Position numbers and translations under genes: made by a program. The notes below the pieces were generated by a model, which saw nothing but the letters and a program-made list of their open reading frames with translations, was not told the DNA's origin and did no database searches. A stretch of 64,000 nt of DNA from Actinomycetota bacterium (GTDB lineage Bacteria; Actinomycetota; Geothermincolia; Fen-727; Anoxymicrobiaceae). Numbering within the stretch: the first letter of the stretch is position 1; each line of letters starts with the position of its first letter. The stretch lies in assembly GCA_018896525.1 (NCBI GenBank), contig JAHIMR010000040.1:11492-75491 (forward strand), read 5' to 3'. Shown one piece after another: positions 26,066 to 64,000 of this stretch.

Positions 26066-26460
26066 AAGTCCCCCGCTCCACAGATACGCTGGCATTCGAA
26101 CGCCGCTCCCGTCCACTCCGGCTGCGTTCCGCTCCCTCGGCGTACTAGAGAAGTACGGATAAGTCCCCCGCTACACAGATACGCTGGCATTCGAACGCCG
26201 CTGCATCCACTCCGGCTGCGTTCCGCTCCCTCGGCGTACTAGAGAAGTACGTCTCGGTCGCGCGCCTTGCCGGAGCGACGCTTCGACGCTCTCGGTGCTT
26301 AACCGTATCTATGGAACGGGGCACTGAGTCGCGCGCCTTGCCGGAGCGGCGCCACGCTCTCGGTACGTAACCGTATTTATGGAACGGGGCACTGAGTCGC
26401 GCGCCTTGACGGAGCGATGCCACGCTCTCGGTACGTAACCGTATTTATGGAACGGGGGAC
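26066..26460. repeat. Family A nested array: 2 tandem left arms, 1 centre, 3 tandem right arms (about 395 bp).
   Basis: Left arm twice (…CCCCCGCT(C/A)CACAGATACGCTGGCATTCGAACGCCGCT…CTCCGGCTGCGTTCCGCTCCCTCGGCGTACTAGAGAAGTACG…). Right arm three times (GTCGCGCGCCTTGCCGGAGCG..GC..CGCTCTCGGT.C.TAACCGTATTTATGGAACGGGG.AC). It fills the recA-recX gap. Confidence 0.9.
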
Positions 26461-29997: not shown

Positions 29998-30929
29998 TGT
30001 CGGGGTCAGGCCTTAGGCGAAGAACGGTGCTTCAAATCATCATCGCGCTACTGGTGTTGCTTGCGGCATCGGGGATTGCCGAGTATTTTCTGCACAGGGC
30101 CCGGTCGAACGCCGCTAGCGTGAAGGAATACCACGAGGTCGTAGCAAGTGACTGGGGCAAGACCGTCGAGCGCTCGGAGAGCGTAAACACGGCCCTCACC
30201 GGAGTGGTTTCACCAGCTGATCTCGGGAGCGTGGCGAGCGCCGCGGGGCTTATGAGGGGAGAGCTCCAGGGGATTCTGGACGCGCGTGAGAAAAACCCGC
30301 CTCCGTCGGGCGAACGAAACCTCGCCGGAGCGGAGACGGAGTGCTTGACCTCACTGGACCGTTACCTTGAGATGGTTGAAGAGCTTGCTACGGGTGGTGA
30401 TGAGGAGAGCATTGTGGAGGACCGGGCACTGTTGGAAAGCCGCGCGGCTCAGGCGCTTTCAAAGGTCAACGACTTCCTCTTCAACGCGGAGTTCACCGGA
30501 GACCAGATATCAGGTGAATTCTTCAGGGCGGGTGAATCCCTGGCAAACGCGTTCGCCCCGCCAGAGTGGCAGAGCGCTGAAGAAGAGGTGGCGTACGGGA
30601 TAGTCAACAGTTTCATGGACGCGGACATCAAGGAGTTTAACCCGGACGTGCTCTGGTCACTATCTTCGAGCAAGCGTATCGAGGGCCTGAGGTTAATGGG
30701 AGTCACAAGGGAGAACTTCGCCGAGGGCTGGATTGACGCCCGGGGCGAGGAGAAGCATCCGGTGGATTTCCACGTCAGCAGGCGCGGCATCGTGTTTACT
30801 CCATCCACCGTTGAGTTGGAGGTAGTCGTATACCTGGAGCGCGGTGCCCCCTGGAGAGAAACCGTTCGCCTGGTGAGGGAAGCTGATGGATGGAAAGTGG
30901 AAGGATATCCGTTTGTGGGCTGGCTGTAG
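29997..30929 (+). CDS. Membrane-anchored (single N-terminal TM) extracytoplasmic protein of unknown function, co-operonic with the GHKL ATPase (ATGA-type overlap).
   Basis: MSGSGLRRRTVLQIIIALLVLLAASGIAEYF signal anchor, a helical region, then a beta-rich C-terminus. No recognisable motif. Confidence 0.5.
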   Translation: MSGSGLRRRTVLQIIIALLVLLAASGIAEYFLHRARSNAASVKEYHEVVASDWGKTVERSESVNTALTGVVSPADLGSVASAAGLMRGELQGILDAREKNPPPSGERNLAGAETECLTSLDRYLEMVEELATGGDEESIVEDRALLESRAAQALSKVNDFLFNAEFTGDQISGEFFRAGESLANAFAPPEWQSAEEEVAYGIVNSFMDADIKEFNPDVLWSLSSSKRIEGLRLMGVTRENFAEGWIDARGEEKHPVDFHVSRRGIVFTPSTVELEVVVYLERGAPWRETVRLVREADGWKVEGYPFVGWL

Positions 30930-31255
30930 TGCCCCGTCTCACAAATACAATGGCATTCGAACGCCGCTGCATCCACACCGGCTGCGTTCCGCTCCCTCGA
31001 AGTACTAAGGAAGTACGTATGAGTACCCCGCTCCATAGATACGCTGGCATTCGAACGCCGATGCATCCACACCGGCTGCGTTCCGCTCCCTCGAAGTACT
31101 ACAGAAGTACGTCTCGGTCACGCGCCTTGCCGGAGCGGCGCATCGACGCTCTCGGTGCTGAACCGTATCTATGGAGCGAGGCACTGAGTCACGCGCCTTG
31201 CCGGAGCGGCGCACCGACGCTCTCGGTGCGTCACCGTACTTATGAGACGGGACAC
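30929..31255. repeat. Family A array: left arm, left arm plus centre plus 2 right arms.
   Basis: GTGCCCCGTCTCACAAATACAATGGCATTCGAACGCCGCTGCATCCACACCGGCTGCGTTCCGCTCCCTCGAAGTACT... repeated, ending ...CGGTGCGTCACCGTACTTATGAGACGGGACAC. Confidence 0.9.
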
Positions 31256-31370
31256 TAGTGTTTGTGATAGACAGGGACGATGTTTTAAAATGGACTGATT
31301 ATCGCCGAAGAGCGCGGTGAGTGACTCAAGCGATTCCAGCGGATAGAGGTTTGCGAGGGGGAACGGGTAG

Positions 31371-36151: not shown

Positions 36152-36619
36152 GTGTTCTGTCCCGCGTGTGGCAAGAATAATCCTGAGGATAGCGCGTACT
36201 GTTCTCAGTGTGGCGCCTATCTCGTATCGCGAGATCACGAAGGTGATACGACAATCACGCTGACACCGGTGGAAGCGGATATGGAGCAGGAGGAGGATAT
36301 CCAGGTTCCCGATGAGGAGCTATCCGCCGGTGCGGCTATGCTGGTTGTCAAGAGGGGACCTCGCGCCGGAACGCGTTTCGTCCTTACCAGGGATGTCACA
36401 GGCGCCGGCCGTCACCCCGAAAGCGATATCTTCCTGGACGACATAACGGTGTCCCGTCGCCACGCCGAGATCCACAGGAGCGGTTCAGCGTTTCGTATCA
36501 AAGACATGAAGAGCCTTAACGGTACGTACGTCAATAAATTGAGAGTTGAGGAAGCGGACCTGGCGGGTGGCGACGAGATACAGATTGGCAAATTCCGGCT
36601 TATCTTTTTCTGTAAATAG
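36152..36619 (+). CDS. garA: GarA/OdhI-like FHA-domain regulator with an added N-terminal C4 zinc ribbon.
   Basis: LVVKRGPRAGTRFVLTRDVTGAGRHPESDIFLDDITVSRRHAEIHRSGSAFRIKDMKSLNGTYVNKLRVEEADLAGGDEIQIGKFRLIF is near-identical in pattern to the mycobacterial GarA FHA domain. N-terminus CPACG...CSQCG. Thr-rich GDTTITLTP resembles the GarA phospho-acceptor ETTS motif. Confidence 0.8.
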   Translation: MFCPACGKNNPEDSAYCSQCGAYLVSRDHEGDTTITLTPVEADMEQEEDIQVPDEELSAGAAMLVVKRGPRAGTRFVLTRDVTGAGRHPESDIFLDDITVSRRHAEIHRSGSAFRIKDMKSLNGTYVNKLRVEEADLAGGDEIQIGKFRLIFFCK

Positions 36620-44818: not shown

Positions 44819-45811
44819 ATGAAGAGAAAGATCTGTCTATCGCGAATACTCCTGGCGGTGCCTGTCATTGCCGTCATGACGCTCTTGATCACGTTCTCAA
44901 GCGCCGTTTTCGCGCAGTACGTGCCTGATAGTGCACTGCCCAAGCAGGAGCAGGCAAGGAGTATCGAGAGGGATATTGCCTTACTCGAGCAGAAGCTCAC
45001 CAAGGCGAACTACGACAAGGTCGTGATGTCCAGGAGGCTCGAGGAAGTCGAAAAGCAAATACTTGACTGCTACATGGTTATTGACGCGACGGAAGCGGAA
45101 CTCGCCCGATTGAGGAAAAACCTTAACAGTGAACTGAGGTATCTATACATCGATGGACGCAGGGATACGATTGTGCACCTTATCAACTCGAGCGACGTCA
45201 CGGATTTCATGATCCACTTCGACCACATGGTGGACGTGGCTTCCAGTGAAGCCGAAGTGCTCGAAAAGATAAAGGCCAAGAAGAAGCGGATAAAGCAGTA
45301 CCAGGATAACCTGATAGATTACAAAAGCGAGGCGGCCGCCGTTTTGCGCAACAGCGAAACCGAGCAACTGGAGTTCCAGGTAGCGCAGAAGAAAAAGGAA
45401 CTCGCCGATGTAACCAGCTCAATAATTGCCATGCAACTGCCGACCACACAGGCTCCAGCACCCGCCGCCTTCAGCCCGTCAGCCGTCTACTCCGAGCCGG
45501 ACGACAGCGGGTTCGTCATGACAGGGCAGGTCTTCTCCGGTTATTCCAGCTGGTACGGAAACCAGTTTCACGGCAGGACGACCGCGAGCGGTGAGGTGTT
45601 CGACCAGTATGCCTTCACCTGTGCCCATAAGCAGTTGCCATTCGGCACATGGTTGCGAGTGACGTTCCGCGACAGAACGGTTATAGTCAAAGTCAACGAC
45701 AGGGGACCGTTTATCAAGGGCAGAATGCTGGACCTCTCACGTGGGGCGGCCGAGGCGATCGGCCTCAGTGGCGTTCAGTGGGTGGATTGCGAGATCGTGG
45801 TACCAAAGTGA
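44819..45811 (+). CDS. Secreted coiled-coil protein with a C-terminal RlpA-like double-psi beta-barrel domain (septal lytic transglycosylase family).
   Basis: Signal peptide MKRKICLSRILLAVPVIAVMTLLITFSSAVFA. C-terminus SWYGNQFHGRTTASGEVFDQYAFTCAHKQLPFGTWLRVTF...VNDRGPF. Preceded by an AT-rich (~30% GC) 170-bp region. Confidence 0.75.
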   Translation: MKRKICLSRILLAVPVIAVMTLLITFSSAVFAQYVPDSALPKQEQARSIERDIALLEQKLTKANYDKVVMSRRLEEVEKQILDCYMVIDATEAELARLRKNLNSELRYLYIDGRRDTIVHLINSSDVTDFMIHFDHMVDVASSEAEVLEKIKAKKKRIKQYQDNLIDYKSEAAAVLRNSETEQLEFQVAQKKKELADVTSSIIAMQLPTTQAPAPAAFSPSAVYSEPDDSGFVMTGQVFSGYSSWYGNQFHGRTTASGEVFDQYAFTCAHKQLPFGTWLRVTFRDRTVIVKVNDRGPFIKGRMLDLSRGAAEAIGLSGVQWVDCEIVVPK

Positions 45812-45839
45812 CCCAGGGCCCGTCTCTATCCACTTTCGA

Positions 45840-46550
45840 ATGAGGTTAATGGTGAGAGAGGTTTTCCCCGGCGTATACATGATGAAAAGGACATGGGGAT
45901 CCAATGTATATGTGCTGCCGGGCGACAACCCCGTTATGATTGACGCCGGCTTCCCGGTTGACCGTAGACGGATAGCGAGGCGTCTGGCCGGCTTCCCTTC
46001 CGATAAAAGATGGCTGCTGGTGGCTACCCACTATCATCTCGATCATACAGGGTCGATGAAGTGGATTTCCGAGTCGTTCGAAACCACGATAGCCGCACAT
46101 GCCGGGGACGCGCCGGTCATGGAAGGCTCCATGCCTTACGATATATTCAAGCTGAACCTTCCACAGACCGTCTACTACAAGACGCTCTCCCCGTTATTCA
46201 GGTACCAGTACGTAAGTGTCGACCGGAAGCTCGAGGAAGGGGATGTGCTGGACACCCTGGGGGGGCTGGAGGTCATACACATTCCCGGACACACCCGTGG
46301 AAGTATCGCCCTTTACCAGGAGAACCGGGGCATCCTCTTTTCCGGCGACACGGTGAGGAACGAGAACGGCGTCTTGGAGGGCCCTCCCCCCCAGTTCAGC
46401 ATCGCGCCGGTGGAGTCGTTCACCAACATCAGGGAAAAGTTGCTGAACCTGGACTTCGAGGTGCTGTTGCCGGGGCACGGTGACCCTATCATCGGCGGTG
46501 CCCGGGACGAGGTGCACAGGATGATGTCGCGCCGCGGCGGAACGGAGTGA
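45840..46550 (+). CDS. MBL-fold metallo-hydrolase.
   Basis: HYHLDHTGS and HIPGHTRGS are the beta-lactamase-fold metal-binding motifs. The start was moved to ATG 45840. Confidence 0.8.
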   Translation: MRLMVREVFPGVYMMKRTWGSNVYVLPGDNPVMIDAGFPVDRRRIARRLAGFPSDKRWLLVATHYHLDHTGSMKWISESFETTIAAHAGDAPVMEGSMPYDIFKLNLPQTVYYKTLSPLFRYQYVSVDRKLEEGDVLDTLGGLEVIHIPGHTRGSIALYQENRGILFSGDTVRNENGVLEGPPPQFSIAPVESFTNIREKLLNLDFEVLLPGHGDPIIGGARDEVHRMMSRRGGTE

Positions 46551-46554
46551 ACTG

Positions 46555-47907
46555 ATGGACGAAAGATGGGACCTTGTTGTGGCTGGGGCGGGGCCCGCCG
46601 GCTGCTCGCTTGCGGCCATGACCGCGCTCGAAGGGGCCACTGTGCTGCTCCTGGAGAAAGAGGACCAGCCGGGCCTCGGCCGCGACTGGATAGTCGATGT
46701 AGAGAGCACCGCTTTCGAGGAAGCGGGCGTCCCACCTCCAGACCCGGAGGCGTCCTGGCACCAGGCCGGGGGGCAGGTGATGATGTCACCCACCGGCGGC
46801 ACAACGATAGACCTGCTGCCACCCCCGGTGCTCCCGGTGCGAAACGGCGCCTACATCAGACAACTGGCCGGGTGGGCAGCCGAATCGGGAGCGGAGGTCC
46901 GAACCGGATGCCGGGTTCTCGGGCCGGTACTCCAGGGAGAGGCGGTCGCCGGGGTGCGGGTGGCACAGCCCGGTGGGGGAGAGGTGATCATAAGGTCGAA
47001 CCTGGTAGCCGATTGCACGGGAATCACGGGCGCCCTCAGGCGTGGAGCGCCTCCGGACTGGGACCTTGGAGGCGAAATCGACTCCAGGGATATAGTCCAG
47101 GCCAGGCGGGAGGTACGGAGAATCGACCCGGACGCCGCGGCCCACTGGGTCGAGCGAGGGGACATACCGGATAACGTGCGGGTGGACAAGACCGGTGTCA
47201 TGGCGGCGTACTCCGTCGAGGCGTGCCACCTGGACATTGACGCCGGTTACATCGATATCCTGGTGGGCGGAAAGCTGGGAGGCAGGTTTCCCACCGCCGA
47301 CGAGTGGTTCGCGCGGGTCGTGCGCAGGTGGCCGTTCGTGGGCGAGAAGATCTTCGGGGACGGCGGAATCATCCCGGTGAGGAGGACCTGGAACTCTCTG
47401 GTGGGGGACGGCATGCTGCTCCTGGGTGACAGTGCCTGCCAGGTAATCCCCATGCACGGCTCAGGAACCGCCTCCGCCCTCCTGGCGGCGAAACTGGCCA
47501 CCTCGGCGGTCATCCATGCACTGGATGAGAAACGGTACGATCGACGGGCCCTCTGGGAGTACTGCCGTGCTTTCCAGAGCGGCCGCGGTTCAATACTGGC
47601 GTTCTTCTTCGTGGTACAGCGGCACATCGATCGCCTCACCGGCGACGACATAGACGCTCTGATCAACAGGGGCATGATTACCGCGGAGGATTTCTACAAC
47701 GGCCTGGTTCCACTGCCCTTGTCCTATGACCCCCTGACCCTGGCAAAGAAGGTGGCCAGGGGCGTCGCGATTCTTCCGCTCCTCACCGGGTTCGGCCTGT
47801 CAGGTCTGAAGGCGGAAAGGATGATGAAGCATTACCAGGAGTTCCCGTCCGCTTACGACCGCCGGGAACTGGACCGGTGGATATCAGGCCTGCCGCGGGT
47901 ATCGTAG
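46555..47907 (+). CDS. FAD-dependent oxidoreductase (geranylgeranyl-reductase-like).
   Basis: N-terminus DLVVAGAGPAGCSLA is the dinucleotide-binding motif. 450 aa. Confidence 0.65.
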   Translation: MDERWDLVVAGAGPAGCSLAAMTALEGATVLLLEKEDQPGLGRDWIVDVESTAFEEAGVPPPDPEASWHQAGGQVMMSPTGGTTIDLLPPPVLPVRNGAYIRQLAGWAAESGAEVRTGCRVLGPVLQGEAVAGVRVAQPGGGEVIIRSNLVADCTGITGALRRGAPPDWDLGGEIDSRDIVQARREVRRIDPDAAAHWVERGDIPDNVRVDKTGVMAAYSVEACHLDIDAGYIDILVGGKLGGRFPTADEWFARVVRRWPFVGEKIFGDGGIIPVRRTWNSLVGDGMLLLGDSACQVIPMHGSGTASALLAAKLATSAVIHALDEKRYDRRALWEYCRAFQSGRGSILAFFFVVQRHIDRLTGDDIDALINRGMITAEDFYNGLVPLPLSYDPLTLAKKVARGVAILPLLTGFGLSGLKAERMMKHYQEFPSAYDRRELDRWISGLPRVS

Positions 47908-47910
47908 CGG

Positions 47911-48612
47911 CTACTCGCGCCTGGCGGCTATCCCCCCTACCGCCGCTACCAATCCTAGAGCGGCTCCCGCGAGCCCTACGTAGAGGCCTGAACCAACATT
48001 GGATAAAGACAGGGTGTTAACCACGTCGGCGATGTCTATCACGAATATCGCTCCGGTTATTATTGTGACTATCAGGCCCACCACGAACGGCCACCGGGCC
48101 TTCCCGATAAGCCCTACCAGGAAGAACGCGCCGGCTATGACCGCAAAGAAGAGGGTTATCTTTCCGTCTCCCTCCATCCCGCCTTTACTCGCGTAGAACG
48201 CCTGTGCCCATGGTAGAAACGATCCGATCATCACTATCATCATCGCCGCCAGACCGACACCGCCCCATATCTGCGCGCCGGAAGACGTTGTTGCACCCGA
48301 GCGCGCCGCCCGCTGTACGGGGTAACGAGCCGCCGCCGGCATCCCCGGTTGCTGGGTCATCCCCGGTGGGGGAGACATTGGCGGCGGTGCCGCTCCAGGA
48401 AGAGGGGCTGTCGGTGGTGGCGCCACTCCGGGTGGAGGTGCCACCGGGACGACCGCCGGAGGAGCCTGGGCGGCCGGCGCGGACGGCGGCGGCGTTCCCG
48501 TCGGTGACGGTGGGGGAACGGCGGGGGCCTCCAGTGGGCTCCCGCAGAACTGACAGAACTTCGCCTCAGCCGTTTCTCTGCCGCAACTCTTGCATGTGGC
48601 CACTTTCATCAC
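47911..48612 (-). CDS. Membrane protein: N-terminal C4 zinc ribbon, ~80-aa Pro/Ala-rich linker, 4-TM domain paralogous to the gene upstream of it.
   Basis: CKSCG...CQFCG. The TM core GDGKITLFFAVIAGAFFLVGLIGKARWPFVVGLIV aligns with GDGKILLALGATCFIFLVLGAWRGKRAFFGIVFL of the 48632-49111 product. Confidence 0.6.
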   Translation of the reverse strand: MMKVATCKSCGRETAEAKFCQFCGSPLEAPAVPPPSPTGTPPPSAPAAQAPPAVVPVAPPPGVAPPPTAPLPGAAPPPMSPPPGMTQQPGMPAAARYPVQRAARSGATTSSGAQIWGGVGLAAMMIVMIGSFLPWAQAFYASKGGMEGDGKITLFFAVIAGAFFLVGLIGKARWPFVVGLIVTIITGAIFVIDIADVVNTLSLSNVGSGLYVGLAGAALGLVAAVGGIAARRE

Positions 48613-48631
48613 CTCGCATATCTAGACGACT

Positions 48632-49111
48632 TCAGGTTTCCTTCCGCGCTTCCGGCTCACTCTTGAGTAACGAGTAGCCGCACTGACCGGCGAGCATTCC
48701 GGCGACGCTGGCAAGAAGCGCTATATAGAGGCCGGTTCCGGGGCCGGTTATACCCGGTCGGGTCAGAAGAAAGATTATCTCGTAAGAGGACAGGAGGAGC
48801 GCCACCACCGAGCAGAGGAACACTATCCCGAAAAAAGCTCTCTTGCCCCGCCACGCTCCCAGAACCAGGAATATGAAACAGGTCGCCCCCAGCGCCAGCA
48901 GTATCTTGCCGTCACCGGAAACCAGGTTGGCGTAATGCCAGCCCGACTCGGTGTAGAGCCCGAGCACGGAGTCGGAGCGCCAGGTGAGGAAGCACCCCAG
49001 GATCATCATGGATACCGCCAGCACAATCCCCAGTGCGGTGGTGACGAGGGTGGCGACCTTGACCTTTGTTTCCACCCTGCCTTCCATCGTCCGGGACTCT
49101 TCTCTATTCAT
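48632..49111 (-). CDS. 4-TM membrane protein, paralogue of the TM domain of the 47911-48612 product.
   Basis: See the paralogue alignment above. 159 aa. Start overlaps the stop of the upstream methyltransferase gene. Confidence 0.6.
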   Translation of the reverse strand: MNREESRTMEGRVETKVKVATLVTTALGIVLAVSMMILGCFLTWRSDSVLGLYTESGWHYANLVSGDGKILLALGATCFIFLVLGAWRGKRAFFGIVFLCSVVALLLSSYEIIFLLTRPGITGPGTGLYIALLASVAGMLAGQCGYSLLKSEPEARKET

Positions 49112-49920
49112 CGACTACCTCTACTCAACAGCCCGTTCCTGAACGCCTTTACGTATCCCCTGCAGTACCGGTCGGATCCGGCGACCGCCTCCGCCGCGTA
49201 TATGGTGGATACCAGTTCTCTGTCCATGGGGTCCATCAGCAACGCGTCGAGGCCCATGAATACCGCCGCCGCCAGCATCGACCGGTTCACCAGCGAGCGC
49301 ATCGGCAGGCCGAAAGACACGTTGCTCAGGCCCAGGACCGTCTTCACCTCCGGAAACTCGTCCCTGATGAGGGAAAGGGCTTCCAGCGTGACCCGGCCCT
49401 GCCCGGAGTCGGCGCTTATCGGGAGCGCCAGCGGGTCCAGGAACACGCTCTCTTCGGGTACGCCGAACTCACGGGCCGCGCCCAGTATCCCGCGGCACAC
49501 CTCCAGGCGTCCCGCCGGCGTCTCCGGAATGCCCGACTCGTCCATCGCCAGGGCGACGACCCGGCATCCGTGACGGGCAACAAGGGGAAGCACTCCCTCG
49601 AGCCGCGCCCGCTCCCCGTTCACCGAGTTGATGAAAAGACCCTCACGGCCGTACAGCTCCAGGCACCGCTCGAGGACCTCCGGGTCGGAGGAGTCCAGCG
49701 CCAGCGGCTTGCCCGTGGCTTCCTTCACTACTTCCACCGCCCACTCCATGGATTCGAGCTCACTCGCTCCTGAGCCGGTGCCGACATTCACGTCTATGTA
49801 ATCCGCCCCCGCCTCCGCCTGCGAAGACGCGAGGCCGGCCAGGAAGCCGTTGTCACGCCGGACGATGGCGTCTCCCACCTCGTCGATACTACCGTTTATC
49901 TTTTCTCCGATGATAATCAT
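49108..49920 (-). CDS. Pterin-binding methyltransferase of the AcsE/MtrH/MetH-pterin-domain family (methyl-tetrahydrofolate:corrinoid-type methyltransferase).
   Basis: MIIIGEKING at the N-terminus and TVLGLSNVSFGLPMRSLVNRSMLAAAVFMGLDALLMDP. Both closely resemble the MeTr/AcsE signature (IIGERING, GLSNVS.....R.L.NR.FL..A...GLDAAI.D). It is not DHPS-like. Confidence 0.75.
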   Translation of the reverse strand: MIIIGEKINGSIDEVGDAIVRRDNGFLAGLASSQAEAGADYIDVNVGTGSGASELESMEWAVEVVKEATGKPLALDSSDPEVLERCLELYGREGLFINSVNGERARLEGVLPLVARHGCRVVALAMDESGIPETPAGRLEVCRGILGAAREFGVPEESVFLDPLALPISADSGQGRVTLEALSLIRDEFPEVKTVLGLSNVSFGLPMRSLVNRSMLAAAVFMGLDALLMDPMDRELVSTIYAAEAVAGSDRYCRGYVKAFRNGLLSRGSR

Positions 49921-50024
49921 TTCCGCTCCCGGAAAAACGGCCTTTCACTGCCCTTATGCTAACAGATACCCGGAACTGTCACAGTTCCCGTCCTGGTCTC
50001 CGAGCAACAACGGGCGGCCTATAG

Positions 50025-50350
50025 TGCCCCGTCTCACAAATACAATGGCATTCGAACGCCGCTGCATCCACACCGGCTGCGTTCCGCTCCCTCGAAGTAC
50101 TACAGGAGTACGTTTTAGTACCCCGCTCCATAAATACGCCGGCATTCGAACGCCGCTGCATCCACTCCGGCTGCGTTCCGCTCCCTCGAAGTACTCCAGA
50201 AGTACGTCTCGGTCGCGCGCCTTGCCGGAGCGGCGCTTCGACGCTCTCGGTGCTCAACCGTATCTATGGAACGGGGCACTGAGTCGCGCGCCTTGCCGGA
50301 GCGGCGCTTCGACGCTCTCGGTGCATCACAGTACTTATGAGACGGGACAC
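50025..50350. repeat. Family A array: left arm, then a full element, then an extra right arm.
   Basis: GTGCCCCGTCTCACAAATACAATGGC... + GTACCCCGCTCCATAAATACGCC... + ...GGTGCATCACAGTACTTATGAGACGGGACAC. Confidence 0.9.
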
Positions 50351-50456
50351 TGGTGATTTCCAACGAGGTCACAGTAGAATATAATCTCAGTGTATGTGAA
50401 CGTGATGCCCGTGTCTCCAGCGTAAAGGCGGGCAGCAAGCAAGGAAGGTGGTTGCG

Positions 50457-58994: not shown

Positions 58995-59600
58995 TTAGAT
59001 CGCACCAATCAGCCTTACTATCTCCTGGGCTCCCATGCGGAGGTTGAAAGCATCGAGGTGATGCTCGCAGTTGGAGTCGAACAGCACCTGGGCACGGGCT
59101 TCGAACTCATCGTCCGACCCCCAGAGGATGAAGCATACCGGCACCAGCGGGAAAAGAGCGAAAGAGCAGGCCGCGTCACCGTAACGCTCGACCGTGCCAC
59201 CAATCGTTTTGGCCGATGTGATCAGATTGCCGGTGCCGGACCCGAAAGCCCGGGCCAGCGGGGCCTCGACGGTTCGCGCCACAACCGGCTCGTAGAAGCG
59301 TCCGCCCGGGAGGTCCCGGTAAGCCACCCAAGACCCCGACGGCGGCGTTCCATCAGAGTTACACAGATAGAGCAGGGTAAGCAGCTTCAACGTGAAGCTG
59401 TCGAGCTCCGGGGCGGCCTCCACCGATATCCCCGGGAACGTGATCGATATCTCCCCCCCCAGGACCGGCACCAGCAGAGTCCCCACCCCGGGCCCCTCCC
59501 CCACCGGTACCCATGTCGCCCCCGTCCTGCTAGCTATCTCCTCCGGATCGGAGTCCCGGAGCTTGTCCAGCGGTTCATCAAACGGGGAAACGCCTTTCAT
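58995..59600 (-). CDS. Conserved hypothetical protein at the end of the nrdD-grx-dut operon.
   Basis: About 200 aa from ATG 59600 (MKGVSPFDEPLDKL...). The ORF-track N-terminal 30 aa lie inside repeat copy 3 and were discounted. Confidence 0.5.
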   Translation of the reverse strand: MKGVSPFDEPLDKLRDSDPEEIASRTGATWVPVGEGPGVGTLLVPVLGGEISITFPGISVEAAPELDSFTLKLLTLLYLCNSDGTPPSGSWVAYRDLPGGRFYEPVVARTVEAPLARAFGSGTGNLITSAKTIGGTVERYGDAACSFALFPLVPVCFILWGSDDEFEARAQVLFDSNCEHHLDAFNLRMGAQEIVRLIGAI

Positions 59601-59624
59601 TTTAACCACTGCTTGCTTGGCGTG

Positions 59625-59830
59625 GGTGGGGTCTCGCCCTGGGGCTGTTGCATAGTGGGGTGTTGGTTTGGGTAAAGTGTCCAACGGCAACAGCCCGGGG
59701 ATGGCGGGTTTTGTCTTGCGTTATCGCGTATAGACGTGGTGCCAGGCACCTGCGTTGCATTAAGGAGAACGGTTTGTGTGGAGGTTTCAACGGCAACACC
59801 TGAGCCAGGCACCTTCGGGTGGCCTTTAGG
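59625..59830. repeat. Repeat family B, copy 3 (GTTGCAT module X, then GGGGATGGCGGG, then GGTGCCAGGCACC palindrome, then module Y GTTGCATTAAGGAGAACGGTTTGTGTGGAGG...AACGGCAACACCTGAGCCAGGCACC).
   Basis: Module X matches 54218-54270. Module Y matches 7309-7372 at about 80% identity. Confidence 0.8.
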
Positions 59831-60277: not shown

Positions 60278-60520
60278 TCAGCCGGCGTGATTGGCGATCT
60301 CGGTGGGCCTTGGGACATGACAGCGCCAGGACTGCATGACCGCTCCGTCATCGTCCACCAGCACCATCGATGGCGTACACAGCACACTGTGGAACGCCGC
60401 CTCTGCCAGGCCATCAGCCTTGTCCATGTTGAACATCTTGCTGAACGTGAACTGTCTCGCCACCTCCTTCGCCGCCGGGCAGTTAGGACAATCTTCCTTC
60501 ACGAACACCTTGAGTACCAT
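60278..60520 (-). CDS. Glutaredoxin-like / NrdH-like small redoxin (thioredoxin fold, CPNC active site).
   Basis: MVLKVFVKEDCPNCPAAKEV..., 80 aa. Lies between nrdD and dut. Confidence 0.7.
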   Translation of the reverse strand: MVLKVFVKEDCPNCPAAKEVARQFTFSKMFNMDKADGLAEAAFHSVLCTPSMVLVDDDGAVMQSWRCHVPRPTEIANHAG

Positions 60521-63500
60521 CCAGCTTCCCCCCTATAAGTGACGTACGCTTCCGCTCATTGAGCTCACCCAATTTTCCCTTGTTCCATGTCGATATCTTG
60601 GAGTAATACCCGACAATGCGGGTTACGCCGTAGGTGTCCTTAGACCCGCAAAGGGGACACTCCTCGGACAGGCCCCGGCTGGTTCTGCTGCACGCGTTAC
60701 ACACGGTGAACTCGGGGCTGAAAGCTATCTGTGCCGCGTTTGTTTCCTCGAACGTTTTCACCACGAACTTCCGTATCGACGCCGGCGGTGGCTCGTGCTC
60801 ACCAAGCCAGATATGGATAATCGCGCCGGCCTTGATGAGCGGGTGGAAAAGGCTCTGTTTCTTGACCCTGTCGATGTAATCGATGGGCGCGTCGTAAGCC
60901 ATGTGCACGCTGTTAGTGTAGTAGTAGTTGTCAATCTCGATGTCCCCCTTGACCACCTCCCGGGCCTGGCTGGGGAAGTACTTCATATCCAGCTTCGCCA
61001 GCCGGTATCCGCTTGACTCCGCGGGGGACTCCTCCAGCACCATGCTGATTCCGTACTTCTCCGAAAGCCGCTCGCAGACCAGGCTCATGTGGGCCACCAC
61101 CTTGAGCCCGAACCTCAGGGAATCACTGGACTGGTGCAACTGCTCGCCGGTGTGGTGCTGAACCATCTCGTTCAGTCCCAGGAGGCCGACCAGGTATGTC
61201 AGCCGGTTAAGCCGCAGGTACGTCTCTCCATCGTGCTCCATGGTGAGAAGCGAAACAGGCCCGTCGCGCCCAAGCTCCATCAGACTGAGGATGAACTTCT
61301 TCTTCTGCAGATGCGCCCTCGCCACCATCTCCATGGTCTTCTCGATCTCGCTGAACAGCATCTCCTCGCTGCCGTGCGCGCGGTAAGCTATGCGGGGCAG
61401 GTTCAGGGTGATGTTTTGCATGGCGGTGAATCGCATCTTCTCGGGGGTGAGCGCCTCCTGGAGGTCCACCTCGTCAAGCCTGAGCTTCAGCCGGCAGCAC
61501 TGTGATACCGTGATCTCGTCTCCCCGGTCATATACAAAGTAGGTGATTCCCTGCTTACTGGCTACCTCACAGGCCAGGTCCAGGAACTCCTCCCAGCCCT
61601 CGGTCTTGAAGAAGTCGTCGTTTATGTGGAGGAGCGGCTTGGGGAACACAAACGTCTTCCCCATGGCGTCCCCCTCCATATAGATCTCGAAAAGGGCCTT
61701 CAGGAACGACTGTGCTTCCTTCTCGTATTCACTGTAGGGCTTGCCCGTCGGCTCCCCGCCGGGGCCTATCGCCGGCGCGTCCTTGAGGTGCCTGGGTACG
61801 TTCCAGTAGAGGTTGAAATCAGTGAACACGACCTGGCTGTTATGCGCGAAAATGCCCTCTGCGGTCAGGAAGTTCTCGGTTTTTTCAACGCCTATATCGT
61901 ATACGAATTCATCGTTTTCAATAGGTTCAATCCCTGTGACAGTAGCTGGCAGCAGGTTGGTCGCCCTCTCCAGCGAATCCCTCAGCGCGGCCATCTCCTG
62001 GTTCTGGTGCAGCGCCAACCCCAGCCCGTGCTTGAGCATATTCAAGTTACTGTCAAGCTGGCGTGAATCGAAGAACGATTGTGAGTGGTTAATCCCCGAT
62101 CCGGGATTGATAGCCCGGGGGATCGAGAGGGCATCCATGACCTCTTTCATCTCCACTTGCTCATGGCAAGTACCCTTCAGCACTTCGTCGGTCCTTATGT
62201 GGGTGCTGTGAACGGGGACCTCGCCCCGTTCCAACTGCCGTAGTAGCCCGTATGAAGTCGAGTAGCACAGCTCCTTGTTGCCGAGGACGTACTCCTTGCA
62301 GACACCAACTAAATCCTCGTCATGAAGGTTCTTGAGCAACTCCATGTCGACTGTGGATAGTCGCCTGGAAACCTCGGCGCTCAGTTCCTTTATCGTTTGC
62401 GGAGATACCTTGTTCAGCGCCTTGACCGATATCCTATCGCCGAAAACGGACTTAACCTGCTCTCTTATGTGATGATATGAATAGCCTTTCTGGTCGTAGC
62501 GCTTCCCCGGTTTTCTGATAGCCGCTAGCCTCTTACCTTCCTTTTCCCGGTGCACGAACCTCACCTTGTCCATGGCCGTCTTTCCGATAGTTATGACGTG
62601 TCGCGTCTTGGTCTCCGCTACCGCGACCCCCTTGATCTCGAGGTCGTTCTCGATCTCTTCCTTCCTCATGCTGGGCATGCATCCCAGCTGGCTGAACATC
62701 AGCCAGACGTGAGACGCCAGCGTTTCCGAAACCGTCGAGCATCCAATCCTGTTGCCGGAGACCCATCCATCACCGGACAGGTAAGCGGAAAGGAACTCGA
62801 CCGCCCTCCCGCCATCACCCAGTAGTATCTCCGCGGGGACTCGCTTGTTCTCGGCGCGTTTTCCGCAAAGAGCCTCAAACAGCGCTACATGCGTCTTCCC
62901 CCCGAAGAAGCAGCTTCCGTCCCGGTGGTGGCAGGGAACTCCGAACACCGCCCGAACGCAATCCTCGACGTCCCGGGCCGTTTGCTCGTGGAATATCGCC
63001 AGCTGAACCTGGGACCCAAGGCTACCTTCAGCCACGTAGTAACCAATGAGGCGGGTTAACTCGGGTGTGATCTTCAATAAACGGTCAACGCCAAGCTTGC
63101 TCCTGGCCTTCTCGACCACAAAAACCAGCCCGTCCTCAAGAGCGACCTCCCGCCGGTCCAGTAGCGCGAGTACGTCTATCTCCTCCCGGCCAAGGTCGAT
63201 GCCTATGTTGTTGGGCACCAGGACCACGTCGGGATTCTCCTTTGGTTGCGCTTTCACTATCCGTCCATCCTCGTCAAACTTGAAAAGGGAGTGGTTGTCG
63301 GTCACCTTGACGTTCTGCCCCTGCGAGGTCTTCAGGTTGACTATCCGGTGGTTATTCTCATGGCGAATAGCGGCGTAAATCCTCGACAGGCATGTTTGCC
63401 CCGTATCGTGGTCGAAACTGAACGCGTAGTACCGGTCATCCTCAACCGGAGCGGTGGCTTCCCCCTCCCGCTGGATGAAGGAATCGGCGAACTCCCCGAT

Positions 63501-64000
63501 CTCAACCAGCTTTACTTGGTTTTCCTGCTTGTCGTAGATGAATACTCTCTCGTCCCTCCGAAGCGAGCCCCTGGCGCCGGCGAGCTGGTTGAATTCGAAG
63601 ATGAGCATCTCCGCCAGTTGCCGGATCCTCTTATAGGGCAGCCCCACCAGGAATGGGGCGAAGAACACGTTAACCGCCTCCCAACCGATTGCTCCCGCGT
63701 AATATGATTGCAGTGTGGAGGCCATCTTGACCATGTGGCCAATCAGCACATCCGGGTGGCGTGCCGGGCTTGATGTGCTGGTGATGTTGGGCAGGCGCAA
63801 CCCGAACTTCTTGACGTACTCCAGGCTGTGCCCTCCGCAATATGGCCGGACACAGAACCCCAGGTCATGCAGGTGTATGTCGCCCTCATAGTGGGCACGG
63901 GCTATATCATCGGAGAATATCCGCTGAAGCGCGTACTGCTTGAGTACCGTCTCGGCTATTGTCAGGTTTATCGACTCGGGATTATGGGTGGTGTTGCTGT
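60483..64000 (-). CDS. nrdD: Anaerobic ribonucleoside-triphosphate reductase NrdD (class III, glycyl-radical enzyme) interrupted by an intein. The 5' end runs off the window.
   Basis: The reading frame is open to nt 64000 (upstream translation ...HYEGDIHLHDLGFCVRPYCGGHSLEYVKKFGL...). C-terminus C4 zinc site CNACS...CPLCG and glycyl-radical motif TRIVGYYSK. The extein total is about 600 aa, which fits NrdD. Confidence 0.85.
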   Translation of the reverse strand, partial: SNTTHNPESINLTIAETVLKQYALQRIFSDDIARAHYEGDIHLHDLGFCVRPYCGGHSLEYVKKFGLRLPNITSTSSPARHPDVLIGHMVKMASTLQSYYAGAIGWEAVNVFFAPFLVGLPYKRIRQLAEMLIFEFNQLAGARGSLRRDERVFIYDKQENQVKLVEIGEFADSFIQREGEATAPVEDDRYYAFSFDHDTGQTCLSRIYAAIRHENNHRIVNLKTSQGQNVKVTDNHSLFKFDEDGRIVKAQPKENPDVVLVPNNIGIDLGREEIDVLALLDRREVALEDGLVFVVEKARSKLGVDRLLKITPELTRLIGYYVAEGSLGSQVQLAIFHEQTARDVEDCVRAVFGVPCHHRDGSCFFGGKTHVALFEALCGKRAENKRVPAEILLGDGGRAVEFLSAYLSGDGWVSGNRIGCSTVSETLASHVWLMFSQLGCMPSMRKEEIENDLEIKGVAVAETKTRHVITIGKTAMDKVRFVHREKEGKRLAAIRKPGKRYDQKGYSYHHIREQVKSVFGDRISVKALNKVSPQTIKELSAEVSRRLSTVDMELLKNLHDEDLVGVCKEYVLGNKELCYSTSYGLLRQLERGEVPVHSTHIRTDEVLKGTCHEQVEMKEVMDALSIPRAINPGSGINHSQSFFDSRQLDSNLNMLKHGLGLALHQNQEMAALRDSLERATNLLPATVTGIEPIENDEFVYDIGVEKTENFLTAEGIFAHNSQVVFTDFNLYWNVPRHLKDAPAIGPGGEPTGKPYSEYEKEAQSFLKALFEIYMEGDAMGKTFVFPKPLLHINDDFFKTEGWEEFLDLACEVASKQGITYFVYDRGDEITVSQCCRLKLRLDEVDLQEALTPEKMRFTAMQNITLNLPRIAYRAHGSEEMLFSEIEKTMEMVARAHLQKKKFILSLMELGRDGPVSLLTMEHDGETYLRLNRLTYLVGLLGLNEMVQHHTGEQLHQSSDSLRFGLKVVAHMSLVCERLSEKYGISMVLEESPAESSGYRLAKLDMKYFPSQAREVVKGDIEIDNYYYTNSVHMAYDAPIDYIDRVKKQSLFHPLIKAGAIIHIWLGEHEPPPASIRKFVVKTFEETNAAQIAFSPEFTVCNACSRTSRGLSEECPLCGSKDTYGVTRIVGYYSKISTWNKGKLGELNERKRTSLIGGKLDGTQGVREGRLS
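61839..63566 (-). mobile_element. Intein (576 aa) with a LAGLIDADG homing-endonuclease domain, inserted in nrdD. The N-terminal nucleophile is Ser and the C-terminus is ...FAHN followed by Ser +1.
   Basis: Block A SLRRDERVFIYDKQENQVKLVEIGEF; block B VKVTDNHSLF; LAGLIDADG 1 LIGYYVAEGSLG; LAGLIDADG 2 LSAYLSGDGWVS; blocks F/G VYDIGVEKTENFLTAEGIFAHN|S. Boundaries inferred from these motifs. Confidence 0.8.

What the first reader, a model, noticed from the sequence alone, without database searches (positions are those of the whole stretch)
47911..49920. Stand-alone AcsE/MtrH-like pterin-binding methyltransferase in an operon with two paralogous 4-TM proteins, one carrying a zinc ribbon and a Pro-rich stalk
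- The 270-aa protein has the IIGEKING and GLSNVSFGLP signatures of methyl-THF:corrinoid methyltransferases.
- No corrinoid protein, acs/cdh gene or metH module lies nearby.
- Instead it is translationally coupled to two small membrane proteins with homologous 4-TM cores. The second has an N-terminal C4 zinc ribbon and an 80-residue PPxP-rich linker.
- In methanogens MtrH is the methyl-pterin-binding subunit of a membrane complex. A minimal bacterial pterin-methyltransferase plus membrane-partner module is not a described arrangement.
- It could represent a membrane-tethered methyl-transfer or folate-handling system.
Basis: partly seen in the sequence, partly recalled or inferred. Interest (0 to 1): 0.55.

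Follow-up and report, generated by a model that had tools for sequence, protein, structure and literature searches.

The report
Orphan corrinoid-type methyltransferase beside membrane genes
An ordinary cytoplasmic methyl-folate/corrinoid methyltransferase gene sits in front of two small, lineage-specific membrane-protein genes in an uncultured actinobacterium, but relatives keep the membrane genes after losing the enzyme, so a dedicated membrane methyl-transfer machine is unlikely.

Summary
Three tightly packed minus-strand genes encode:
- a 270-aa pterin-binding methyltransferase (MT);
- a 159-aa 4-TM protein (TM1);
- a 233-aa paralogue (TM2) with an N-terminal CxxC…CxxC ribbon and a linker that is 35% proline.

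No corrinoid, acs/cdh or metH gene lies anywhere in the 64-kb window.

The MT passes the NCBIfam methyl-THF:corrinoid methyltransferase model and keeps all pterin-site residues. It is not FolP, MtrH or canonical AcsE. Its best solved relative is the MT II of the Desulfitobacterium O-demethylase. Outside this clade, 52 of 78 homologue loci carry a B12-binding corrinoid protein within 3 kb, and none has a TM1/TM2 homologue.

TM1/TM2 form a tiny, unnamed family confined to one uncultured Actinomycetota clade, always in the same syntenic housekeeping block. Eleven lineages have MT-TM1. Four keep TM1 without the MT, which implies at least three independent losses. TM1's invariant residues lie in loops predicted to face outside the cell.

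Most likely this is an orphan MT II-type enzyme serving a corrinoid protein encoded elsewhere, co-transcribed with unrelated membrane genes. The membrane-complex idea is not excluded, but it is weakly supported. Interest is low.

The parts
49108..49920 (-). MT: 270-aa pterin-binding methyl-THF/methylcorrinoid methyltransferase (MT II / AcsE-type TIM barrel). GenBank names it 'dihydropteroate synthase'.
   Evidence: Pfam PF00809 E 1.9e-22. NCBIfam PRK07535 288.7 bits against cut-off 259; CODH_ACS_meth 121 against 370; no FolP model hit. PDB 4O0Q/4O1E/4O1F E 1.7e-61; MeTr 2E7F E 2.6e-48. D76, N98, D162, N200 and the Arg matching MeTr R207 are conserved in 10 clade orthologues. GenBank name.
48632..49111 (-). 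TM1: 159-aa four-helix integral membrane protein of an unnamed, clade-restricted family. Its start overlaps the MT stop (ATGA).
   Evidence: No Pfam or NCBIfam family. 13 clusters in 5.8 billion proteins. 14 representatives at E<=1e-10 among 1.84 billion. AF2 pLDDT 74.5 with four helices. No significant PDB fold match. Invariant W44, D47, G57, D67, G68, G120, P124, G125.
47911..48612 (-). TM2: 233-aa paralogue of TM1 with N-terminal additions. Stop codon at 47911-47913.
   Evidence: hhalign against the TM1 family: probability 98.5%, E 3.8e-15. Orthologues in L001, L004, L009, L011 and others.
48529..48600 (-). TM2 residues 5-28: CxxC-x9-CxxC zinc ribbon, predicted cytoplasmic.
   Evidence: Weak Pfam DUF7575, Zn_Ribbon_1 and DZR hits, all below cut-off. 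The four Cys are invariant in 5 orthologues. The same ribbon occurs in remote family members P0151, P0153, P0155, P0157, P0159 and P0168.
48283..48528 (-). TM2 residues 29-110: Pro/Ala-rich low-complexity linker, variable in length between orthologues.
   Evidence: 35% Pro and 22% Ala. The linker is shortened or absent in L011 and L009.
47914..48282 (-). TM2 residues 111-233: 4-TM core homologous to TM1, sharing the motifs GSFLPW, DGKIT and GxGLY.
49921..50447 (.). Divergent intergenic region between the MT operon and the AMP-binding gene. It is filled with 2 x 94-nt and 2 x 70-nt tandem copies of a dispersed intergenic repeat. No riboswitch.

Best explanation
The MT is a soluble, cytoplasmic methyl-THF/methylcorrinoid methyltransferase. 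This is the MT II type that, in three-component corrinoid systems, passes a methyl group between a cobalamin-binding carrier protein and tetrahydrofolate. In this actinobacterial clade its gene is 'orphaned' from its corrinoid protein and substrate-specific MT I, which are encoded elsewhere in the genome.

TM1 and TM2 are paralogous, clade-specific small membrane proteins of unrelated and still unknown function. They are permanent residents of this chromosomal position. The MT gene lies upstream of them and shares their transcript, but there is no obligate functional coupling.

Shown: family membership of the MT, an intact pterin site, TM paralogy, the distribution of the TM family, and MT loss with TM1 retained.

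Inferred: the corrinoid partner elsewhere in the genome, co-transcription, and functional independence.
For: MT identity:
- It passes the PRK07535 cut-off. There is no FolP or MtrH hit.
- The best solved relative is the D. hafniense structure 4O0Q/4O1E/4O1F. PMC13222342 uses 4O1E and 4O1F as the CH3-H4F and H4F templates for an MT II.
- Pterin-site residues are conserved in 10 orthologues.
- In an NJ tree the clade is sister to Desulfobacterales MTs that sit in MT-MttB-CoP operons, far from Moorella AcsE.

Corrinoid link:
- 52 of 78 non-clade homologue loci have a B12-binding protein within 3 kb, 24 of them directly adjacent.
- In clade member L004, a CoP-TetR-URO-D cluster lies 4 kb from the MT.
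- The same cluster in two other Actinomycetota MAGs (L111, L112) has no pterin MT of its own within 8 kb.
- MT II genes away from their MT I/CP genes are an accepted situation (PMC13222342 methods). The general MT1/CP/MT2 scheme is in PMC8630106.

Independence of the TM genes:
- TM1 occurs only in one syntenic block of one clade.
- There are 11 MT-TM1 lineages and 4 TM1-only lineages.
- An AMP-binding pseudogene scar lies next to TM1 in L009 and L103.
- The MT-less lineages are not monophyletic.
- TM2 is absent from the MT-containing lineages L105 and L106/107.
- No TM1/TM2 homologue lies near any of the 78 outside MTs.
- The positive-inside count (11 K/R inside, 2 outside) places 10 of TM1's 18 invariant residues in external loops.
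Against: - Within the clade no MT was seen without TM1 downstream, although one locus (L013) is cut at the MT.
- The MT-TM1 spacing stays tight (overlap to about 30 nt in most lineages, about 100 nt in L092), even where MT identity has fallen to 56-63%.
- TM2 has a cytoplasmic zinc ribbon on a long linker that could recruit a soluble partner.
- I could not show that the window's own genome encodes a corrinoid protein. The attempt through the protein search and accession numbers was inconclusive.
- 10 of 11 MT-containing lineages have no CoP within the 5-10 kb seen.
Confidence: 0.6

Rival explanations
1. Functional membrane module. The MT docks on TM1/TM2, for example through TM2's cytoplasmic zinc ribbon and Pro-rich stalk. 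This would give a membrane-tethered methyl-transfer or folate-handling unit specific to this clade.
For: - The MT stop overlaps the TM1 start.
- MT-TM1 order and tight spacing are kept in 11 lineages down to 56% MT identity.
- No corrinoid gene is nearby in 10 of 11 lineages.
- TM2's ribbon and linker are predicted to be cytoplasmic.
Against: - TM1 persists without the MT in 4 lineages, at least 3 independent events.
- TM2 is missing from 2 MT-containing lineages.
- The whole block is syntenic, so adjacency is largely inherited.
- TM1's conserved residues face outward.
- The MT has no extra domain relative to soluble homologues: 264-270 aa in the clade against 262 aa for MeTr.
- The same 4-TM core is fused to unrelated N-terminal modules elsewhere.
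- None of the 78 outside homologues has such a partner.
Confidence: 0.1
2. The MT is the organism's AcsE. It would be the methyl-THF:CFeSP methyltransferase of a Wood-Ljungdahl pathway whose acs/cdh cluster lies elsewhere in the genome.
For: - Strong match to MeTr structures (E 2.6e-48).
- The PRK07535 name covers the corrinoid/iron-sulfur protein methyltransferase.
- Some anaerobic Actinomycetota carry the Wood-Ljungdahl pathway (PMC7325909).
- There is a weak CdhD-like Pfam hit.
Against: - The NCBIfam CODH_ACS_meth model scores 121 bits against a cut-off of 370.
- HMMER scores are higher to the O-demethylase MT II than to MeTr (211 against 168 bits).
- In the tree the clade sits with CoP/MttB-linked MTs, with MeTr on a long separate branch.
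- In the described Wood-Ljungdahl Actinobacteria, acsE lies inside the acs operon (PMC7325909).
- The MT was lost at least 3 times in the clade, which is odd for a core pathway gene.
Confidence: 0.15
3. Split methionine synthase. The MT would be the methyl-THF-binding module of a multi-polypeptide MetH.
For: Domain-level match to MetH residues 344-585 (TIGR02082, 105.7 bits) and to MetH structures (E about 1e-23).
Against: - These matches are much weaker than those to MT II and AcsE.
- No homocysteine S-methyltransferase or B12 module is found in the window.
- The MT is dispensable in several clade members.
Confidence: 0.04
4. The protein is dihydropteroate synthase (FolP), as GenBank names it.
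For: The GenBank product name and shared Pfam PF00809 superfamily membership.
Against: - No FolP/DHPS NCBIfam model hits at E<=0.01, while the methyltransferase model passes its cut-off.
- No true DHPS structure appears at E<=1e-3. The only entry named 'DHPS' is 4O0Q, whose companion entries 4O1E and 4O1F hold methyl-THF and THF (PMC13222342).
- The N200 (GLSNVS) methyl-transfer motif is conserved.
Confidence: 0.01

Closest known systems
MT II (methylcorrinoid:tetrahydrofolate methyltransferase) of bacterial three-component corrinoid methyltransferase systems. Examples: D. hafniense O-demethylase MT II (PDB 4O0Q/4O1E/4O1F); MtvA, OdmD, MtqA, CdmA, MtgA.
   Same: - Same Pfam and NCBIfam family.
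- Same length, a single TIM-barrel domain.
- Best sequence match among solved structures.
- Conserved pterin-site residues.
- The nearest outside homologues sit in MT-MttB-CoP or CoP-URO-D operons.
   Different: - There is no corrinoid protein, MT I or activase within the 64-kb window.
- The gene is instead followed by two small membrane-protein genes.
- Activity is untested.
AcsE / MeTr (methyl-THF:corrinoid iron-sulfur protein methyltransferase of the Wood-Ljungdahl pathway, Moorella thermoacetica, PDB 1F6Y/2E7F)
   Same: Homologous over the full length (about 39% identity). It has the same active-site residues D75, N96, D160, N199 and R207.
   Different: - It fails the NCBIfam AcsE model (121 against 370 bits).
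- It is not in an acs/cdh cluster.
- It branches with CoP-linked MTs, away from MeTr.
MtrH subunit of the methanogen membrane-bound Mtr complex
   Same: Only the general chemistry (methyl-pterin:corrinoid transfer) and the idea of an association with membrane subunits.
   Different: - There is no PF02007 match.
- There are no MtrA-G homologues.
- TM1 and TM2 carry no corrinoid-binding feature.
- This is a different protein family.
Uncharacterised 'zinc ribbon - Pro-rich linker - multi-TM' small membrane proteins common in Actinomycetota and Chloroflexota
   Same: TM2 has exactly this architecture. Remote members of the same 4-TM family carry zinc-ribbon, GPGWW-repeat or other small N-terminal modules.
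   Different: The 4-TM core family here has no Pfam model. It is very small: 42 representatives at E<=1e-3 among 1.84 billion.

Membership tests
Pterin-binding methyl-THF:corrinoid methyltransferases (Pfam PF00809; NCBIfam NF005719/PRK07535) | Scores above the curated family cut-offs over the full length | tested here: met
   PF00809 80.6 bits against 25.5. PRK07535 288.7 against 259, residues 1-265 of 270.
Pterin-binding methyl-THF:corrinoid methyltransferases (Pfam PF00809; NCBIfam NF005719/PRK07535) | Pterin-site residues equivalent to MeTr D75, N96, D160, N199 and R207. Their role is recalled from the MeTr structural literature. | tested here: met
   Window D76, N98, D162, N200 and the matching Arg. 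All are invariant in 10 clade orthologues.
Pterin-binding methyl-THF:corrinoid methyltransferases (Pfam PF00809; NCBIfam NF005719/PRK07535) | Catalyses methyl transfer between methyl-THF and a Co(I)/CH3-Co(III) corrinoid | not testable with these tools
   Needs an enzyme assay.
MT II of three-component corrinoid methyltransferase systems | Closest characterised or solved relatives are MT II enzymes | tested here: met
   4O0Q/4O1E/4O1F is the top hit at E 1.7e-61. The clade is sister to MttB/CoP-linked MTs.
MT II of three-component corrinoid methyltransferase systems | Encoded with, or in the same genome as, a B12-binding corrinoid protein, an MT I and an activase | tested here: inconclusive
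   None in the 64-kb window. CoP plus URO-D lie 4 kb away in clade member L004.
AcsE (NCBIfam NF040758 CODH_ACS_meth) | Scores above the model cut-off | tested here: not met
   121 bits against a cut-off of 370.
AcsE (NCBIfam NF040758 CODH_ACS_meth) | Located in an acs/cdh gene cluster with CFeSP genes | tested here: not met
   No acs/cdh genes in the window or in the flanks of any clade locus.
Dihydropteroate synthase (FolP) | Matches a FolP/DHPS equivalog model or true DHPS structures | tested here: not met
   No FolP model at E<=0.01. No genuine DHPS chain at E<=1e-3.
MtrH / Mtr membrane complex | PF02007 MtrH domain together with MtrA-G membrane subunits | tested here: not met
   No PF02007 hit. 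TM1 and TM2 match no Pfam family.
Methionine synthase MetH | Full-length equivalog score with Hcy-binding, B12 and AdoMet modules | tested here: not met
   TIGR02082 scores 105.7 against 1010.85, covering the pterin module only.
TM1/TM2 4-TM family (unnamed) | Shared four-helix core with the motifs GSFLxW, (G)DGKI and GxGLY | tested here: met
   Alignments A1 and A2 with hhalign probability 98.5%. AF2 four-helix model.

The most novel reading that the evidence does not exclude
In this uncultured Actinomycetota clade, an MT II-type methyltransferase has been recruited to work at the membrane with TM1/TM2, for example docked through TM2's cytoplasmic zinc ribbon. It might also act together with the neighbouring geranylgeranyl-reductase-like flavoprotein, whose presence tracks that of the MT. 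This would be a methyl-transfer module with no separate corrinoid carrier nearby.
Probability: 0.08. Interest if true: 0.55.

Novelty: new member of a known kind. Interest (0 to 1): 0.2.

Why it matters
If the plain reading is right, the practical value is small:
- It corrects a 'dihydropteroate synthase' mis-annotation in GenBank.
- It flags an MT II gene that points to corrinoid-dependent methyl-group metabolism in an uncultured anaerobic actinobacterial lineage.
- It defines a tiny, unnamed 4-TM protein family.

Only if the MT really works with the membrane proteins would this be a new arrangement for corrinoid/folate methyl transfer in bacteria. The evidence gathered here argues against that.

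Tried and rejected
- Rfam at gathering thresholds over the whole window, and at E<=1 over the MT upstream region: no cobalamin or THF riboswitch.
- tRNA scan: none.
- Pfam at E<=10 on 11 TM1 family members: only noise, such as DUF6609 and MotA_ExbB at E>=0.01.
- Foldseek of the TM1 model against PDB: no hit at E<=0.001, only generic four-helix bundles such as claudins and maquettes.
- The afdb50 fold library was unavailable.
- Showing a corrinoid protein in the same MAG by searching with the L004 CoP and comparing GenBank accession ranges: the hits came from other MAGs, so this was inconclusive.
- Literature on DUF3786, a conserved neighbour: nothing useful.
- I could not assign the clade to a named class, and I did not verify the link to the Wood-Ljungdahl Actinobacteria of PMC7325909.
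- A complex prediction of MT+TM1+TM2 was not possible with the single-chain tool, so I did not attempt it.
- Promoter and terminator scans were at chance level.
Full report
**1. What is there**

Three closely packed ORFs lie on the minus strand.
- MT: 49108-49920, 270 aa.
- TM1: 48632-49111, 159 aa.
- TM2: 47911-48612, 233 aa.

The MT stop and the TM1 start overlap as ATGA. TM1 and TM2 are 19 nt apart, with a GAGGTG before the TM2 start.

The MT begins MIIIGEKING and carries GLSNVSFGLP at residues 197-206.

Hydropathy gives four TM segments in TM2 and three strong plus one weaker segment in TM1. An AF2 model of TM1 built from an 11-sequence alignment is a four-helix bundle with mean pLDDT 74.5 and pTM 0.70.

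TM2 residues 5-28 hold CxxC-x9-CxxC. The Pfam zinc-ribbon hits are below cut-off, but the four cysteines are invariant in five orthologues. Residues 29-110 are 35% Pro and 22% Ala.

TM1 and TM2 are true paralogues. BLASTP gives E 0.002. hhalign of the two family alignments gives probability 98.5% and E 3.8e-15 over 142 columns.

**2. The surroundings**

The window comes from an uncultured Actinomycetota MAG. The MT is identical to GenBank MBU4174784.1 and three other records, all named 'dihydropteroate synthase'. TM1 is identical to 'hypothetical protein KKB90_09255'.

The 64 kb is a housekeeping stretch:
- leuS, comEC, holA, lepA, hrcA, dnaJ;
- two MiaB-like radical SAM genes;
- sepF, divIVA, proC, recA, rny, lipoate ligase;
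- MgtE, Nramp, a D-Ala-D-Ala carboxypeptidase, a TrkA-type K+ channel, a DPBB lytic transglycosylase;
- an MBL-fold hydrolase and a geranylgeranyl-reductase-like flavoprotein;
- then TM2-TM1-MT;
- then a divergent AMP-binding acyl-CoA ligase, an AsnC-type regulator, MacB/FtsX, DUF3786, dUTPase and an intein-containing NrdD.

No B12-binding, acs/cdh, metH or second pterin-MT gene is present. This rests on phmmer with a corrinoid-protein seed and a URO-D seed. There is no Rfam hit at all, and none at E<=1 in the MT upstream region.

**3. What the MT is**

- It passes the NCBIfam model for methyl-THF:corrinoid/iron-sulfur protein methyltransferase: 288.7 bits against a cut-off of 259.
- It fails the dedicated AcsE model (121 against 370) and matches only the pterin module of MetH.
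- No FolP model hits, and Pfam MtrH does not hit.
- Among solved structures the best match is the D. hafniense entry set 4O0Q/4O1E/4O1F (E 1.7e-61, 211 bits). Moorella and Carboxydothermus MeTr/AcsE follow at 152-168 bits.
- 4O1E and 4O1F are the CH3-H4F and H4F complexes that PMC13222342 uses as MT II templates. The depositors' molecule name 'DHPS' is therefore an annotation carry-over.
- The residues matching MeTr D75, N96, D160, N199 and R207 are invariant in ten clade orthologues.
- In an NJ tree of 90 sequences the actinobacterial MTs are monophyletic. They sit next to Desulfobacterales MTs whose neighbours are an MttB-family methyltransferase and a corrinoid protein. MeTr lies on a long separate branch.

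**4. Gene-neighbourhood survey centred on the MT**

A scan of GTDB species genomes returned 80 loci. Only two belong to the same Actinomycetota clade.

Of the other 78:
- 52 have a B12-binding corrinoid protein within 3 kb, almost always on the same strand;
- 24 of these have it directly adjacent;
- further neighbours are MttB, URO-D-family MT I, DUF1638 and MTHFR;
- none has a TM1 or TM2 homologue or a small 4-TM gene downstream.

Some outside homologues are also 'orphans' in unrelated contexts, such as L072 and L077. A stand-alone MT gene is therefore not unusual in itself.

**5. Gene-neighbourhood survey centred on TM1**

The TM1 family is tiny.
- 13 clusters among 5.8 billion proteins.
- 14 representatives at E<=1e-10, and 42 at E<=1e-3, among 1.84 billion.
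- The weaker hits share the 4-TM core but carry assorted N-terminal modules: zinc ribbon plus Pro-rich linker, GPGWW repeats and others.

Every TM1 locus recovered lies in the same syntenic block: AsnC / AMP-binding, then divergently [MT] TM1 [TM2], then convergently [FAD reductase], MBL, DPBB and TrkA. These loci come, and were mapped.

Eleven lineages have MT-TM1:
- the window;
- L095/96;
- L001-3/L097;
- L004-6;
- L098/99;
- L100;
- L101/102;
- L011/12;
- L092;
- L105;
- L106/107.

TM2 is missing from L105 and from L106/107.

Four lineages have TM1 without the MT:
- L007/8: AsnC | TM1 | MBL.
- L009/10 and L103/104: a C-terminal AMP-binding pseudogene remnant | TM1 TM2 | MBL.
- L093/94: an intact AMP-binding gene | TM1 | MBL.

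A concatenated AsnC+TM1+MBL NJ tree places the MT-less lineages in three separate positions. This implies at least three independent losses of the MT with TM1 kept. The tree is crude (NJ, 573 columns, no support values), so the exact count is provisional.

**6. Topology argument**

The positive-inside rule gives 11 K/R in the N-terminus, loop 2 and the C-terminus. Loops 1 and 3 hold only 2 (from the sequence). TM1 is therefore N-in, C-in.

Ten of TM1's 18 invariant residues fall in the two predicted external loops: W44, D47, L50, L52, G57, D67, G68, G120, P124 and G125. None falls in a cytoplasmic loop.

This is an inference. It places TM1's conserved surface on the opposite side of the membrane from a cytoplasmic enzyme. 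TM2's ribbon and linker are predicted to be cytoplasmic, and this is the one feature that could still serve the docking idea.

**7. Where the corrinoid partner may be**

In clade member L004, a cluster of TauE | CoP, TetR, an URO-D-family MT I with an N-terminal HMG-CoA_red_N-like domain, and a PFL-like glycyl radical enzyme lies 4 kb from the MT.

The same cluster occurs in two other Actinomycetota MAGs. There it continues with an epimerase, an SDR, acetoacetate decarboxylase and an acyl-CoA dehydrogenase, and it has no pterin MT of its own within 8 kb.

This fits an MT II encoded elsewhere. I could not show that the window's own genome carries this cluster.

**8. Verdict**

The anatomy is real. 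The enzyme is a new member of a well-known family. The MT-TM1-TM2 arrangement is a clade-specific gene order inside a broadly syntenic block.

- It is not FolP.
- The membrane genes are conserved neighbours in relatives.

The reciprocal test fails, because the membrane genes persist repeatedly without the enzyme. Nothing outside the clade supports a functional link.

I assign about 0.6 to the 'orphan MT II plus unrelated membrane genes' reading and about 0.15 to an AcsE role. The membrane module gets about 0.1 as a rival, or 0.08 in its fullest form.

Noticed in passing
window 3438, 11712, 13104, 23867, 26312, 26380, 30928, 31243, 37608, 43262, 43507, 43575, 50023, 50267, 50338: A dispersed intergenic repeat family. 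The core AGTGCCCCGTCTCA gives 15 hits at <=2 mismatches against 0.6 expected. Copies often form inverted pairs 250-330 nt apart. Between the MT and the AMP-binding gene it forms 2 x 94-nt and 2 x 70-nt tandem copies. It looks REP- or MITE-like and has no Rfam match. It probably creates spurious ORFs (49979-50257, 30890-31258, 26145-26423) and an over-extended start for the 43558 ORF.
   Followed up: partly
window 46555-47907 (+) and loci L004, L011, L096, L098, L101, L105, L106 against L007, L009, L093, L103: The geranylgeranyl-reductase-like flavoprotein convergent with TM2 is intact in 8 of 11 MT-containing lineages, a remnant in 2 (L001, L100) and absent in 1 (L092). It is absent from all 4 MT-less lineages (three independent positions in the tree), even though TM1 lies between the two genes. 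Uncorrected Fisher p is about 0.03. This could be a functional link or parallel streamlining.
   Followed up: partly
L004 1-5338; L111 7169-16624; L112 7172-16624: A conserved Actinomycetota cluster: TauE | corrinoid protein, (TetR), URO-D-family methyltransferase fused to an HMG-CoA_red_N-like domain, PFL-like glycyl radical enzyme, epimerase, SDR, acetoacetate decarboxylase, acyl-CoA dehydrogenase. No pterin MT II lies in the cluster. It is a corrinoid methyltransferase coupled to a glycyl radical enzyme, with unknown substrate.
   Followed up: no
window 60483-63800 (-): The anaerobic ribonucleotide reductase NrdD (1105 aa) is interrupted by an intein with a LAGLIDADG homing-endonuclease domain.
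   Followed up: no
window 49108-49920 (-): The identical protein is deposited four times in GenBank as 'dihydropteroate synthase'. PDB 4O0Q carries the same misleading molecule name. Both are annotation carry-overs from the Pfam pterin-binding superfamily.
   Followed up: yes
L009 5595-5875; L103 1082-1264; L100 3833-4042; L001 10056-10214: Pseudogene remnants of the AMP-binding ligase and of the FAD reductase occur in several relatives. This block undergoes frequent deletion while AsnC, TM1 and MBL are always retained.
   Followed up: partly
window 45741-46550 (+): The mechanical MBL-hydrolase ORF overlaps the preceding DPBB gene by about 70 nt. Orthologues align only from residue 35-40, so the true start is probably near 45850.
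   Followed up: no
window 58995-59690 (-): A DUF3786 protein is a conserved member of the same syntenic block (also in L007 and L011). Its function is unknown and no informative literature was found.
   Followed up: partly
window 36152-36619 (+): A second zinc-ribbon protein in the window: an N-terminal Zn_Ribbon_1 (E 5e-7) fused to an FHA domain.
   Followed up: no
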